In this document: positions 1-64,000 of the stretch, in pieces
Position numbering within the stretch: position 1 is the first letter of the stretch
Layout: each line of letters begins with the position of its first letter
NCBI GenBank assembly: GCA_026770705.1
Contig: JANJGN010000035.1
Span: 13,888,001-13,952,000 of the forward strand
DNA: 64,000 nt
Source of the DNA: Isurus oxyrinchus
Taxonomy: Eukaryota
Direction: 5' to 3'
Made by a program: the position numbers

Positions 1-3000
1 CGCCATGTTTAGAAAAAATCTCGCTGTAAATTCACATAAAATCAGTGGAAATAACTTAATGGCAACACATTTCGACTGATATTTGACGGACACGCAAGCG
101 TGCAATTTGTGGCTGTATGAAAATCCAGAATCAGCTTCTTCGGGCTCCAACAACCAACTGAGCTGAAATGTCGCTCGAATAGGAAGTTGAATCCTGGACA
201 CTCAACAGAAGCGTGATGTTCTACGGACTGAGCTATACGGGCTCCATTCTTGAGCAGCTGAAACTTCTGAATTCAGGGCATGGGAGAACTGTGGATGATC
301 GCTTACTGTATTCAGGTCAGTTAGGGTATTTCCAGAATTTCTGAAACAACAGAGGGATATGAAGGTGGGACATTCAAATGAAATTGATTGACAGGGTGTT
401 TGATGAAGATATTCAATATGGGGGCAGTTCTGAAGGCCAGGAAAGCCTACTGCTGCTCCAACTTCTGAGAATCTGATAGACACACGTCAGCGCAACAAGC
501 AGGATTATGCTGAGCTCGGGTGGACGGAATGTAGACTCACAAGCAACTTTCTGCTGGGTAACCTGTTAATTCGCCATACACTTAACAAAACGCGGCCTTC
601 TGTTGTCTCCAGTATGTAAAAATGAAGAGTAGGCTGACAGAGTTATCCATAGTGTTGAAAAGTTTAATCATAGAGACACTATTTCAGTTTGATTAAATTT
701 AGTGCCACCCGTTTCAGAACAGAGATGAGGAGGACTGTTTTTCTCTCTGAGGTTTGCACATCCTTGTAACTCTCTTCCTCAGAAGGTGCTGGAAGCGGGG
801 GTCACTGAATGTTTTTATGGCGGATGGATATAGATAAATGATTGTATGAAAGCAAAACATGGCAGATGCTGATATCGGAAACCAAAAGACAAAATGCTGG
901 AAAAAGTCAGCAGATCTAACAGCATCTTTAACGAAAAACAATTAAAGTTTCAAGTCCCTATGAATATTTCCAGAGTGGATTGGCTCTTGTTAGGTAGGGG
1001 ATCAAATCTTATGGGAAAGATGTCAGAGTTGATGAGATTGTGGAACTCAAAGCACACGCGGATCATCGCCATCATCGTATTGAATGGGAAAGGAGGCTCG
1101 CCAGGCCAAATGGTCTATTCATGTTCCTAATTCTTATGTCCTAAGGAATCGAAAGATTTAGGCCAATCAATGAGCAAGTCAGGATGCAGATTTATGTGAC
1201 AGAGAGGCACGATGGAAATAATCAATACGATTCTCAAAAAAAAGAATCCAAACTATGAAGACTTAGCGAATATGTGCGTTTGTAAATACATTCTGAAACA
1301 CATAGCATACTGCATTCAGACAACAAGAAATTAGGCGTCCACCACTTACACTGCTGCGATTCTCACGTTTTGAATAATGGAGCTTAACGAATTAACCAGA
1401 AAGGGATTTGAATCCAGAACGCTCAAATGTAAATTCCAATCCAACAGAAAACGAGCAATCGTTTTGATCGGGCGCTGTGCTTCAATGCCTCGAAAGATAT
1501 CACATCTTCCCCATATAATGCCTTTCATTCCGAAAAATCTTCCCTTCACATGCCATTCCCAGCACATGCAGACCCACTCCCTTTTCTTCAGAAATATTCT
1601 TACTGTCCACAATTTTCGGTCTTACACACTGCCATGTGATGTGCAAGTGTTCTTTCCCAATATTCCGCTCTAGTACCCCCAATGTTTTGAAGATCAAGTT
1701 AATTGAGAGACAACGAAGTTGCAGAAAGGGGAGCCCCGACATTAGTAATTGACGGATTATGGCTCTTCGGTTGATAAAACAATGTAACTTCTTATTGGCC
1801 CTTGGGAAAGTGCCATATCATTCACTTTGAAAGCAACTCATTGTTAGTGTAGCGATTCAGATTCTTTGGGAGCAGTTATGAGACTTAAGCAGAGCGGGAT
1901 CTCCCTTCAGACATTGCACTTTTTACCACATTTTACCGAGTTTCCTTGTATTCGTGCGTCAGTTAAGAGAAAAAGTCCTTTCAGTCACTTGACATTCAGG
2001 GGCTAGGGATATGAGAAAAGGAGGCACTGGCAGTATTTCGCCAACTCTCATTCGACAGCACATTCCAAACCCACGAACACGTACATCTAGAAGGATAAGG
2101 GATGCAGATGGATGGGAAAATCAGCTCTGAGAAGTCACCCTCAAGCCTCTTACCAAGCTGACTTGGAAATATATCAGCCATTCATTCACTGTCACTGGGA
2201 CAAAACCCGTATCTCTCTCACTAAGATGACTATGGTTGTACCTACACCAGAAGAACTGCATCGGTTCAACAAGGTAGATACACCACCTTTGCAACGGGTC
2301 ATTAGGGATAGGCAGCAAATGTTGGCCCAGCCAGCGAAGCCCACATCCCATAAACGAATTTGAGAAGGCATAAAACCAATTGGTTTTCACTCCTACTCCA
2401 AAATTGCGTAACTTTGTGACTCATCTTCAAACTTTACTCACTTCCTATGTTGGTACCTTTAAAGCTCCTGAGTAAGAGTGTGTCCTCAGCCAGTTATATT
2501 GTCGATGTTCGCAAACCTTCAGCCAGGAGATCCAGACACACGAGTGTCTAATTTCCCTTTCAGCATACGGACCTGTATGCTGCTAGTTCTCTTCTTGAAG
2601 TCCAGGTGTAAGGGGTGATGCTGAACAAACTTGAGGCAGTGTGACATGAGATCAATAACCCTGCCTTTTTTGGTACGGTAACAGCGAGCATTTATAATGG
2701 TAAACAAAAACAGAATTACCTGGAAAAACTCAGCAGGTCTGGCAGCATCGGCGGAAAAGAAAAGAGTTGAAGTTTCGAGTCCTCATGACCCTTCGACAGA
2801 ACCTCAGTTCGAGTCCAAGAAAGAGTTGACATATAAGCTGGTTTAAGGTGTGTGTGTGGGGGGGGCGGAGAGATAGAGAGAGAGAGAGGTGGGTGGGGGA
2901 GGGTGCGGTTGTAGGGACAAACAAGCAGTGATAGAAGCAGATCATCAAAAGATGTCAACGACAATGGTAGAATAGAACACATAGGTGTTAAATTAAAGTT

Positions 3001-63000: not shown

Positions 63001-64000
63001 ATTTTCAGCAAGCTCAGCCGGGACCTTAGAAACTGACGGATGATGTATTTAGAGTTGGTGAATAATGTAATGTGTAGTTAGGCCTGCGAAGGTGCGATAT
63101 CATTCAGTTTTAAAGCGTTTCATTGTCACTTGAGCGAATCACATAATTTCGGGGCAGTCGTTAGATCTTAGCAGAGCGATATCTTCCTTCAAACATTGCA
63201 AGTTTTACCATCTTGCCCCGCGTTTCTTTAACTCCTATAGATAACTCCATCCTTGCTTGCGGATTTCGGTCTAAGGTCACAGCGTGAAATGGTAGCTCAA
63301 TATCAACTATTATACATGAATATCAGGAATGAACTAGCAGCATGAAGGTCAAGTTGCAGAAAGGCAACTTAGATCCTCATTTGTTAGGACTTCATTCGTA
63401 AAGCTTCGTAAACAGGGAAAGGATAACCGTTAGGGGACAGATCCTTACTCAAGAGATTCAAAACTCTCCACCCTGGGATGAATGTAAAGTTAAAAGAAGA
63501 GCCGCTAAGCTTGTGAATTTTGATGTACGAATCAATAACAATTGGTTCTGCGCACTTTTACAATTCGCTTATGGGATGTGGGTTCCGCTGGCTGTGCCAG
63601 CATTTGTTGTCCATCCGTAGTTAACCCGGGAGAACGTGGCGCTCAGCTTTGTTGTTGATCCTATGCTGAGCTGTAGGTAAAACCACAGTGGTGTTTGGAC
63701 GGGAGTTTCATGATTTTGACCCACCGACAGTGACATTACGGCCACCATACTTCAGAGTCAAGGTGTTGAGTTAATTGGAGGGGGGAAACATGAGCAGTGT
63801 CCTTATATATCTGCTGCCTTTCTCCTTGCAGATGGCATTGCTCGTGGGTTTGTAAAATGCAGTCGAATAAGTCTTGGTGAATTCCTGCCAGTGCACCTAT
63901 GTCTTCTATTCCGAGCATCTGAATGCCAATTCAGTTAAAGGCCTCAGCTGCTCTCTGCAGCTGACACATGGCCTGAGTAATTCCTCCATTTTCCCGTTCC

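What the first reader, a model, noticed from the sequence alone, without database searches (positions are those of the whole stretch)
1..64000. Ancient tandem macro-unit (inferred about 45-50 kb) whose copies lost different multi-kb blocks
Seen: anchors recur at 172, 25706 and 61473 (spacings about 25.5 and 35.8 kb) with collinear content and shared old TE junctions, but heavy divergence (roughly a third of sites by eye). Copy A lacks about 37300-47600 and 51900-60110 (its CR1 is cut at about 24235 and joined to sequence matching 60110). Copy B lacks the equivalents of about 3900-14200 and 61915-63660. Inference: a tRNA+ZNF cassette was tandemly amplified, stopped homogenising and eroded by large deletions. 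Truncated shared CR1s show that at least some differences are deletions rather than insertions.
Basis: partly seen in the sequence, partly recalled or inferred. Interest (0 to 1): 0.65.

Follow-up and report, generated by a model that had tools for sequence, protein, structure and literature searches.

The report
Ancient decayed tandem segmental duplication
A 25-36 kb stretch of non-coding, transposon-rich vertebrate DNA was copied head-to-tail several times long ago, and the copies have since drifted to about two-thirds identity and come to differ by multi-kilobase blocks; this is an ordinary kind of genome history, not a new system.

Summary
Unit A (172-25705) and unit B (25706-61472) share 11 collinear, same-strand blocks. 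15 of 20 plus-strand hits lie in one chain, and 0 of 100,000 permutations reach that. Homology runs across both unit junctions, into the start of a third unit (61473-64000) and into the tail of a preceding one (1-171). Block identity is 64-72% (K2P about 0.4). All six frames carry stops, and no conserved island stands out. So this is an old DNA-level tandem duplication that now decays neutrally.

The "tRNA+ZNF cassette" is not supported. The three anchors are decayed tRNA-like relics: ARAGORN finds none, and one of three barely passes Rfam. No zinc-finger motif exists in any frame.

- A's shared CR1-like tail is cut on its 3' side at about 24231, while B's copy runs on.
- B's shared short element is cut at 26130-26160, while A and C keep its end and flank.

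For the two 10-kb blocks, deletion is only favoured, because no unit-only LINE looks younger than the duplication. The 45-50 kb ancestral unit is therefore an upper bound. Unit A also carries an inversion and a young 0.6-kb palindrome. This is an ordinary finding of low novelty.

The parts
1..171 (.). Tail of a preceding unit (Z)
   Evidence: 1-1947 aligns to 61288-63229 and 13-615 to 25536-26130. Homology therefore runs leftward past the anchor at 172.
172..25705 (.). Unit A (25,534 bp)
   Evidence: It forms a collinear chain with unit B. 10,987 bp (43%) lie in aligned blocks.
25706..61472 (.). Unit B (35,767 bp)
   Evidence: It forms a collinear chain with unit A. 10,760 bp (30%) lie in aligned blocks.
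61473..64000 (.). Start of unit C, cut by the window end
   Evidence: 61288-63229 = A 1-1947, and 63667-63999 = B 26160-26495.
172..242 (-). Decayed tRNA-like relic, copy A
   Evidence: Rfam tRNA scores 23.1 bits, below the cut-off of 29. ARAGORN finds none. It aligns with the other two anchors.
25706..25776 (-). Decayed tRNA-like relic, copy B
   Evidence: It is found only by alignment to copies A and C. Rfam gives no match even at E<=10.
61473..61538 (-). Decayed tRNA-like relic, copy C. Its loop reads CTTTTAA, which would be anticodon UUU (Lys).
   Evidence: Rfam tRNA scores 31.4 bits against a cut-off of 29, with most of the anticodon arm missing from the alignment. ARAGORN finds none.
24963..26130 (+). 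Junction-spanning block: end of A plus start of B, equal to end of B plus start of C (60721-61910)
   Evidence: A 1231-column HSP at 67% identity; K2P 0.41.
3355..3932 (+). Shared LINE reverse-transcriptase fragment in A, equal to B 28105-28700. B's copy starts further 5' at about 27578.
   Evidence: tblastn with LINE ORF2 representatives P0012, P0015 and P0019. Both copies stop at the same LINE position.
24100..24231 (+). Shared CR1-like LINE tail in A, cut on its 3' side
   Evidence: It aligns to B about 51760-51896. B continues through P0012 residues 764-931 and the tail profile to about 52508. A instead joins sequence equal to B 60129 after 23 unassigned bases.
51760..52560 (+). The same CR1-like tail in B, complete to its 3' end
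   Evidence: tblastn hits 51854-52084 and 52095-52346 on consecutive P0012 residues. nhmmer tail-profile hit at 51897-52508.
3933..14181 (.). A-only block (10.2 kb), set against about 4 bp in B (28701-28704)
   Evidence: Breakpoint alignments. It holds six LINE-tail fragments: 4147-4283(-), 7676-8029(-), 8738-9396(+), 9412-9637(-), 9857-10431(-) and 11961-12500(-).
31532..34371 (.). B-side gap of 2.8 kb, set against 0.6 kb in A (17735-18333)
   Evidence: It holds an R1 copy at 32305-32644 and a LINE tail at 33017-33601(-).
35540..37135 (.). B-only block (1.6 kb)
   Evidence: It holds a LINE RT piece at 35623-36173(-) that lacks its 3' part.
37276..47721 (.). B-only block (10.4 kb), set against about 7 bp in A (19753-19759)
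   Evidence: Breakpoint alignments. It holds a LINE at 38981-40480(-) and an R1 copy at 43695-44044.
51897..60128 (.). B-only block (8.2 kb). At least its first 0.6 kb was lost from A.
   Evidence: It also holds a LINE tail at 54500-55149(+) and an R1 fragment at 58507-58619.
61911..63666 (.). Block present in C and A (A 616 to about 2600, partly inverted) and absent from B
   Evidence: B's R1 copy stops at reference position 334 or 276, whereas A and C reach 434 or 424-426.
1966..2619 (.). Segment inverted in A relative to C 63302-63944 and B 26213-26446
   Evidence: Minus-strand HSPs. The homology includes about 300 bp of flank that other R1 copies lack.
2700..3322 (.). Young palindrome, found only in A
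   Evidence: A 613-column self-inverted HSP at 91% identity. Its arms are 92-96% complementary around a 30-nt centre.
14182..16370 (.). Shared minisatellite-like stretch (37-bp and 43-bp periods), equal to B 28705-30674
   Evidence: TRF rows; HSPs.

Best explanation
This is a fossil tandem segmental duplication.

Origin (inferred). A stretch of intergenic-type DNA already carried old LINE fragments, a short dispersed element, two minisatellites and a tRNA-Lys-like sequence. It was copied head-to-tail at the DNA level into at least four units: the tail of Z, A, B and the start of C. The likely mechanism is unequal crossing-over or a replication-based tandem duplication.

Timing (shown). The three junction copies are about equally distant from each other. 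That points to amplification in a short time, or to homogenisation that then stopped.

Decay (shown). The units have since evolved independently and apparently neutrally, to about 68% identity.

Size differences. The units differ in size through at least two shown deletions: more than 0.6 kb in A and about 1.75 kb in B. Probably more deletions occurred (inferred). Unit A also carries a local inversion and a later palindromic insertion or duplication (shown).

Function. Nothing in the unit shows coding or RNA-gene constraint today, so I assign no present function (inferred).
For: - 15 of 20 plus-strand A-B HSPs lie in one chain, and 0 of 100,000 permutations reach that. The reversed-sequence control gives 2 hits totalling 154 bp.
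- Alignments cross the unit junctions: 24963-26130 = 60721-61910 and 1-1947 = 61288-63229.
- K2P is 0.35-0.49 in 12 of the 13 block pairs measured and 0.255 in one 118-bp block. Ts/tv is about 0.8.
- In the three-way junction alignment, the pairwise-shared site counts are 70, 94 and 96, with 291 sites invariant. That is a near-star pattern.
- tblastx between A and B scores alike in all six frames, with stops in both sequences.
- Sliding 60-column identity never exceeds 0.87.
- The LINE RT fragment is shared with the same 3' truncation, and the CR1-like tail is shared with the same 5' junction.
- A's CR1-like tail is cut while B's continues to the element's end.
- B's R1 is cut while A, C and two independent copies reach the end.
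- Star-tree branch lengths of LINE tails: 0.244 (0.19-0.30) for the shared pre-duplication copy, against 0.25-0.42 for the seven unit-only tails. Half the A-B distance is about 0.205.
Against: - Only 43% of A and 30% of B lie in aligned blocks.
- No TE library or outgroup was available. I cannot show that any aligned block is non-TE, and I cannot polarise the 10-kb blocks.
- The star-branch ages are upper bounds. Differences between subfamily masters inflate them, so post-duplication insertion is not excluded.
- The B-only LINE at 38981-40480 has only 5 stops in 420 aligned codons. That is fewer than the roughly 11 I estimate for 0.2 substitutions per site, which hints at a younger insertion.
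- B's copy of the shared LINE keeps two stop-free frames of 181 and 138 codons. A crude simulation gives a probability of about 7e-4 at d=0.2, uncorrected for about 10 fragments. Simple neutral decay does not explain this.
- Block identities (64-72%) differ by more than sampling error.
- The number of units beyond the window is unknown.
Confidence: 0.85

Rival explanations
1. The duplication is the same, but the ancestral unit was small (about 11-15 kb). The large unit-only blocks are then mostly post-duplication TE insertions and nested insertions, not deletions.
For: - Every large unit-only block holds LINE tails with their own 3' ends: six fragments in 3933-14181, plus 33017-33601, 38981-39640 and 54500-55149.
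- The B-only LINE at 38981-40480 has few stops, 5 in 420 codons.
- The A-only palindrome at 2700-3322 shows that sequence was added to A after the duplication.
- No TSD or microhomology can be read at any breakpoint to decide either way.
Against: - Two blocks are demonstrably deletions, because shared elements are cut there.
- None of the 7 unit-only LINE tails measured has a shorter star branch than the shared pre-duplication tail. In bootstraps the shared branch was shorter than each of the four same-subfamily tails in 99-100% of replicates.
- Apart from the palindrome, no repeat pair in the window exceeds 81% identity, so there is no sign of TE activity later than the duplication.
- All LINE fragments private to A lie inside one block, and none interrupts the 11 kb of aligned sequence.
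- The B-only LINE RT piece at 35623-36173 lacks its 3' part. It cannot be a simple fresh retrotransposition.
Confidence: 0.3
2. There was no duplication. The diagonals are independent insertions of the same dispersed TE families that happen to be collinear.
For: Some matches are dispersed TEs lying off the chain: the R1 copies, the LINE tails, and 18087-18247 = 52997-53156.
Against: - 15 of 20 HSPs lie in one chain, with 0 of 100,000 permutations reaching that.
- Chain blocks of up to 2.1 kb have no other match in the window.
- Alignments cross the junctions.
- Shared TE fragments have identical truncation points.
Confidence: 0.01
3. The structure is an assembly artefact, such as uncollapsed haplotypes or a mis-joined repeat.
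For: None found.
Against: The units are only 64-72% identical and differ by an inversion and multi-kb blocks. Allelic or mis-assembled copies would be nearly identical. The window contains no N.
Confidence: 0.01
4. This is a functional tandem tRNA+ZNF gene cassette, as on zebrafish chromosome 4.
For: A tRNA-like sequence sits at the same place in each unit. One copy passes Rfam's cut-off at 31.4 bits against 29.
Against: - ARAGORN finds 0 tRNAs. Two of the three copies fall below the Rfam cut-off or are undetected, and the best copy lacks most of its anticodon arm.
- Six frames contain 0 stop-free C2H2 motifs and 0 TGEKP/TGERP linkers.
- No 84-bp period is present.
- 0 Pfam families were found in 14 window ORFs and 8 read-through frames.
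Confidence: 0.03

Closest known systems
Tandem segmental duplications (large low-copy repeats formed by unequal crossing-over or replication-based duplication)
   Same: The copies are head-to-tail and DNA-level, tens of kb long, and carry whatever genes and TEs were present. They later decay by substitution, deletion, inversion and insertion. This is textbook knowledge (recalled); the structural features were tested here.
   Different: The copies are far more diverged (about 68% identity) than the >=90% usually used to call segmental duplications (recalled threshold). At least three junctions are visible rather than one. No gene content survives.
Macrosatellite arrays such as D4Z4 and DXZ4
   Same: Both are tandem arrays of large units.
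   Different: The abstracts listed describe units of about 3 kb in arrays of 12-100 near-identical, highly polymorphic copies (DXZ4, PMC3287207 abstract; only listings and abstracts were seen). Here the units are 25-36 kb, 64-72% identical and not homogenised, and only two full units are visible.
Zebrafish chromosome 4 long-arm region, rich in tRNA, 5S, snRNA and C2H2-ZNF genes
   Same: A tRNA-derived sequence recurs in a repeated genomic block.
   Different: Passages of PMC11075544 describe concentrated tRNA genes and hundreds of annotated C2H2-ZNF genes (321 of 651 Region-2 genes). This window has no zinc-finger motif and only decayed tRNA-like relics.
CR1/L2-type LINE fragments (endonuclease plus reverse-transcriptase retrotransposons)
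   Same: Window fragments align to database proteins that carry Exo_endo_phos and RVT_1 domains. They are 5'-truncated with their own 3' tails, as target-primed reverse transcription produces (mechanism recalled).
   Different: They are passengers and markers inside the duplicated unit, not the cause of the collinearity.

Membership tests
Tandem segmental duplication | Several homologous blocks in the same order and orientation in adjacent units | tested here: met
   15 of 20 plus-strand HSPs lie in one chain, and 0 of 100,000 permutations reach that.
Tandem segmental duplication | Homology runs across the junction, so the end of one unit is followed directly by the start of the next | tested here: met
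   24963-26130 = 60721-61910 and 1-1947 = 61288-63229.
Tandem segmental duplication | Pre-existing TE fragments are copied with identical truncation points | tested here: met
   The LINE RT piece ends at A 3932 = B 28700. The CR1-like tail is entered at the same point in both units.
Tandem segmental duplication | Similar divergence in all blocks, as expected from one event or burst | tested here: met
   K2P is 0.35-0.49 in 12 of 13 block pairs and 0.255 in one 118-bp block. The junction triple is star-like.
Tandem segmental duplication | Collinear homology includes unique (non-TE) DNA | tested here: inconclusive
   Blocks of 0.5-2.1 kb show no LINE protein match, no tail-profile match and no second match in the window. 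No TE library for the species was available.
Macrosatellite | Many units kept nearly identical by homogenisation | tested here: not met
   Identity between units is 64-72%, and no 60-column window exceeds 0.87.
Macrosatellite | An array of tens of units | not testable with these tools
   The window holds two full units and two partial ones.
tRNA gene | A cloverleaf recognised by tRNA finders at or above their thresholds | tested here: not met
   ARAGORN finds 0. Rfam gives 1 of 3 copies at 31.4 bits against a cut-off of 29, with the anticodon arm largely missing; one copy at 23.1 bits; and one with no match.
C2H2 zinc-finger gene | C-x2-4-C-x12-H-x3-5-H fingers, usually in tandem with TGEKP-type linkers | tested here: not met
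   The six-frame scan gives 1 pattern match, which contains two stops, and 0 linkers. No 84-bp periodic array is present. The motif patterns were recalled.
LINE (endonuclease plus RT retrotransposon) fragments | Translated similarity to proteins carrying Exo_endo_phos and RVT_1 | tested here: met
   P0012 and P0015 carry both domains above the cut-offs, and P0019 carries RVT_1. Window fragments match them at E down to 7e-44. The window's own ORFs give 0 Pfam families.

The most novel reading that the evidence does not exclude
The window may be a sample of a much longer fossil array. In this reading, a very-large-unit (25-48 kb) tandem repeat was seeded around a tRNA-Lys gene and once homogenised. 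It froze roughly 10^8 years ago and has persisted, still recognisable, in a slowly evolving vertebrate genome. It would be a decayed counterpart of the tRNA-rich repeated blocks of zebrafish chromosome 4. Such an array could be used as an internal clock for deletion, insertion and substitution rates.
Probability: 0.12. Interest if true: 0.45.

Novelty: new member of a known kind. Interest (0 to 1): 0.2.

Why it matters
The finding has modest value as a natural experiment.
- Paralogous units of one age, lying side by side, let one measure neutral substitution, deletion, inversion and insertion in a single genomic environment.
- Shared TE fragments that are cut in one unit polarise some of those events without an outgroup.
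- The structure is also a warning for annotation. The tRNA-like anchors are relics, not genes.
- Copies at about 68% identity fall below the usual segmental-duplication callers.

It does not reveal a new mechanism or a functional system.

Tried and rejected
- **Pfam on long frames read through stops as X.** 6 frames of the two CR1-bearing blocks and 2 frames of the A-only block gave 0 families. This approach is too insensitive for decayed, frameshifted LINEs, and I dropped it.
- **Pfam on long stop-free ORFs.** 10 ORFs in unit-only blocks and 4 LINE-derived ORFs gave 0 families.
- **Organism identification.** The search for homologous proteins with the CR1-like tail ORFs found nothing, with lengths set to 'longer' or 'near'. 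The organism was not identified. The protein atlas said only "Reverse transcriptase family protein", Chordata.
- **A LINE 3' end at the left edge of the A-only block.** A weak tblastn hit suggested this (E=0.012). The tail profile places only an internal 137-bp piece at 4147-4283, and it projects a 3' end inside the shared block. Rejected.
- **A continuation of the split LINE at the right edge of the A-only block (about 14150-14181).** This was an eye match only. The alignment starts at 14182. Rejected.
- **Microhomology or TSDs at the five breakpoints.** Nothing is readable at this divergence.
- **A second tRNA relic beside the internal repeat X' (25081-25458).** The alignment stops at the edge of the tRNA-like sequence, and Rfam finds nothing there.
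- **Dating LINE copies by stop density.** The results contradict each other: 0 stops in 246 codons of a shared copy against 13 in 309 of an A-only copy. Not used.
- **Coding signal between units.** tblastx scores all six frames alike.
- **Relaxed-score self-hits.** Those weaker than about 110 bits fall within the reversed-sequence control (53 hits) and were ignored.
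Full report
**Source and scope.** The window is 64,000 bases with no N, 42.5% G+C and a CpG observed/expected ratio of 0.51. I do not take it for human.
- Its interspersed repeats are endonuclease/RT LINEs with their own 3' tails.
- Apart from one palindrome, no repeat pair exceeds 81% identity. There is no abundant young short repeat family of the kind that fills human sequence.
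- The organism was not identified. Two protein searches found nothing, and the atlas said only Chordata.
- From memory, two short repeat motifs seen here are typical of cartilaginous fishes. No call tested this.
- No eukaryotic genome collection or flanking sequence was available, so everything below rests on the window alone.
- I built no spliced gene model.

- A strict self-blastn gives 31 plus-strand and 9 minus-strand off-diagonal pairs and one self-palindrome.
- The same search against the reversed window gives 2 low-complexity hits totalling 154 bp.
- Between A (1-25705) and B (25706-61472), 15 of 20 plus-strand HSPs lie in one increasing chain. Across 100,000 permutations of the subject positions the mean chain was 6.6, the maximum 12, and none reached 15.
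- The chain has eleven blocks. They cover 10,987 of 25,534 bp of A and 10,760 of 35,767 bp of B.
- Two alignments cross the unit boundaries: 24963-26130 = 60721-61910 and 1-1947 = 61288-63229. The arrangement is therefore head-to-tail.
- The window holds the tail of a preceding unit (1-171), two full units and the first 2.5 kb of a further one.

**How diverged are the units, and are they constrained?**
- I measured 13 block pairs with global MAFFT alignments: 11 A-B, one A-C and one B-C. Most of the minisatellite stretch was left out. Identity is 64-72% and K2P 0.35-0.49 in 12 pairs. One 118-bp block has 79% identity and K2P 0.255. Ts/tv is about 0.8.
- In the three-way alignment of the junction copies, 291 sites are invariant. 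The three ways of sharing a base between two copies count 70, 94 and 96, and 42 sites are all different. The tree is near-star. The units arose close together in time, or were homogenised until a common stop.
- tblastx between A and B scores all six frames about equally, with stops in both sequences.
- Sliding 60-column identity has mean 0.65, 99th percentile 0.82 and maximum 0.87.
- I therefore see no coding exon, no conserved RNA and no recent gene conversion.
- At about 0.2 substitutions per site per lineage, the event is of the order of 10^8 years old under ordinary vertebrate neutral rates. That is an inference from recalled rates of about 0.5-2.5e-9 per site per year, with the organism unknown.

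**What the unit contains.**
- *tRNA-like anchors.* ARAGORN finds no tRNA in the window. Rfam at gathering threshold finds one, at 61473-61538(-), with 31.4 bits against a cut-off of 29 and most of the anticodon arm missing. At E<=10 a second appears at 172-242(-) with 23.1 bits. The B copy is not found at all. The three align to each other. The C copy's loop reads CTTTTAA, which by standard tRNA architecture would be anticodon UUU (Lys). They are relics of one tRNA-Lys-like sequence. Whether that was a gene or part of a retroposon cannot be told.
- *Zinc fingers.* A six-frame scan finds one pattern match, which contains two stops, and no linker. TRF finds no 84-bp period.
- *LINE fragments.* I queried 1.84 billion representatives with the window's ORF 27563-28108 and got 22 hits at E<=1e-3. 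Pfam showed P0012 and P0015 to carry Exo_endo_phos and RVT_1, and P0019 to carry RVT_1. I used 9 of the 22 as tblastn queries and read the rows for P0012, P0015 and P0019. I also built a tail profile from four window copies, which gave 11 hits.
- *Shared TE fragments.* Two fragments are shared at collinear positions. One is an RT piece, A 3355-3932 = B 28105-28700, which ends at the same LINE position in both units. The other is a CR1-like tail, A about 24100-24231 = B about 51760-51896. The duplication therefore copied DNA that already held these fragments.
- *Other content.* There is a short dispersed element I call R1, of about 350 bp with six copies. There are also two shared minisatellite-like stretches.

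**Deletions or insertions?** Two cases are decided.
1. *The CR1-like tail.* B's copy runs on from 51896 through consecutive residues 764-931 of P0012 and through the tail profile to about 52508. A's copy stops at about 24231 and, after 23 unassigned bases, joins sequence equal to B 60129. LINE copies are made from their 3' end (recalled mechanism), so a copy without its 3' part was cut later. A lost at least about 0.6 kb here. How much of the remaining 7.6 kb of B 51897-60128 it also lost is unknown.
2. *The R1 element.* B lacks C 61911-63666. A and C both have this stretch. Against two independent R1 copies, A and C reach reference positions 434 and 424-426, while B stops at 334 and 276, at its breakpoint 26130-26160. 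This is a deletion in B.

The A-only 10.2 kb and the B-only 10.4, 2.8 and 1.6 kb blocks have no such marker. Breakpoints show no readable microhomology or target-site duplication.

An indirect test used 8 of the 11 tail-profile hits; three short ones were left out. Their K2P distances were fitted to star trees.
- The shared, necessarily pre-duplication tail has a branch of 0.244 (bootstrap 95% 0.19-0.30).
- Four unit-only tails of the same subfamily have branches of 0.36-0.42. The shared branch was the shorter one in 99-100% of 300 bootstraps.
- Three unit-only tails of another subfamily have branches of 0.25-0.28.
- Half the A-B distance is about 0.205.

So no unit-only LINE looks younger than the duplication, which favours ancestral blocks lost from the other unit. 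These branches are upper bounds on age, because differences between source elements inflate them.

Some evidence points the other way.
- The B-only LINE at 38981-40480 has only 5 stops in 420 aligned codons.
- The A-only palindrome shows that A did gain sequence later.

I put deletion as the main cause at about 0.55-0.6.

**Later rearrangements in A.**
- A 1966-2619 matches C 63302-63944 and B 26213-26446 on the opposite strand. The match includes about 300 bp of flank that other R1 copies lack. It is therefore a true inversion, and by two copies against one it happened in A.
- Next to it lies a palindrome at 2700-3322. Its arms are 92-96% complementary around a 30-nt centre, and it gives a 613-column self-inverted HSP at 91%. 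It is by far the least diverged repeat in the window.
- The outer 95 bp or so of the palindrome is a dispersed motif, also seen at 5599-5695, 6199-6294, 59714-59816 and 875-963.
- The palindrome and its terminal extension end at about 3350, just where A-B homology to the LINE resumes (3355). B has about 1.6 kb there, including 0.5 kb more of the LINE's 5' part (27578-28105).
- That corner of A was therefore remodelled by inversion, loss and a foldback insertion or inverted duplication.

**Comparison with known kinds.**
- The structure meets the tested defining features of a tandem segmental duplication. The exception is that I could not show any block to be non-TE.
- It is not a macrosatellite in the usual sense. 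The abstracts listed describe about 3-kb units in arrays of 12-100 near-identical copies. Here the units are 25-36 kb and 64-72% identical.
- It is not like the zebrafish chromosome-4 region. Passages of PMC11075544 describe that region as holding concentrated tRNA genes and hundreds of C2H2-ZNF genes.

**Verdict.** The finding is a genuine but ordinary fossil tandem duplication, and its interest is low.

**What stayed unchecked.**
- The number of units beyond the window.
- The organism.
- TE family names.
- The polarity of the large blocks.

Noticed in passing
window 2700-3322: A near-perfect palindrome found only in unit A. Its arms are 92-96% complementary around a 30-nt centre, and it gives a 613-column self-inverted HSP at 91%. 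It is by far the youngest repeat in the window. Rfam gave only sub-threshold miRNA/snoRNA-like hairpin hits here. Its outer 95 bp or so is a dispersed motif, also seen at 5599-5695, 6199-6294, 59714-59816 and 875-963. It is either a foldback-type element or a recent inverted duplication.
   Followed up: partly
window 1966-2619 (against 63302-63944 and 26213-26446): A 650-bp segment, made of the R1 element plus about 300 bp of flank, lies in the opposite orientation in unit A compared with units B and C. It is a small inversion directly beside the palindrome.
   Followed up: partly
window 27563-28484: B's copy of the shared, pre-duplication LINE RT fragment keeps two overlapping stop-free frames of 181 and 138 codons. 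Pfam no longer recognises an RT there, and the FADD-type motif is degraded. A crude simulation gives a probability of about 7e-4 of no stops at 0.2 substitutions per site, uncorrected for about 10 fragments. The representative search found no close homologue (best LINE-like E=3e-7), which argues against a conserved domesticated gene. The cause remains unexplained.
   Followed up: partly
window 259-664 against 25081-25458; 61557-61940 against 60842-61195: Each unit holds an older internal duplicate (X and X') of about 400 bp at roughly 60% identity. X lies directly beside the tRNA-like relic and X' about 250 bp from it on the other side, at the end of the preceding unit. X' has no tRNA-like neighbour. 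A partial inverted copy lies at 24619-24752.
   Followed up: partly
window 2028-2360, 26174-26446, 32305-32644, 43695-44044, 58507-58619, 63556-63890: A short dispersed element of about 350 bp, here called R1, has six copies at 54-68% pairwise identity and a well-conserved 3' end. It is probably a SINE-like retroposon. The family name was not determined.
   Followed up: partly
window 14260-16370 and 28716-30674: Minisatellite-like arrays with 36-37-bp and 43-bp periods are shared by units A and B. The 43-bp array is about 1 kb long in A but only about 0.3 kb in B.
   Followed up: no
window 19777-20555 and 47614-48421: A CT-rich low-complexity stretch is shared by both units. It produces long spurious Ser/Leu/Pro-rich open frames, and it accounts for 46 of the 53 hits in the relaxed-score reversed-sequence control.
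   Followed up: no
window 18087-18247 and 52997-53156: A 160-bp match at 71% identity lies off the collinear chain. It is presumably another dispersed repeat.
   Followed up: no
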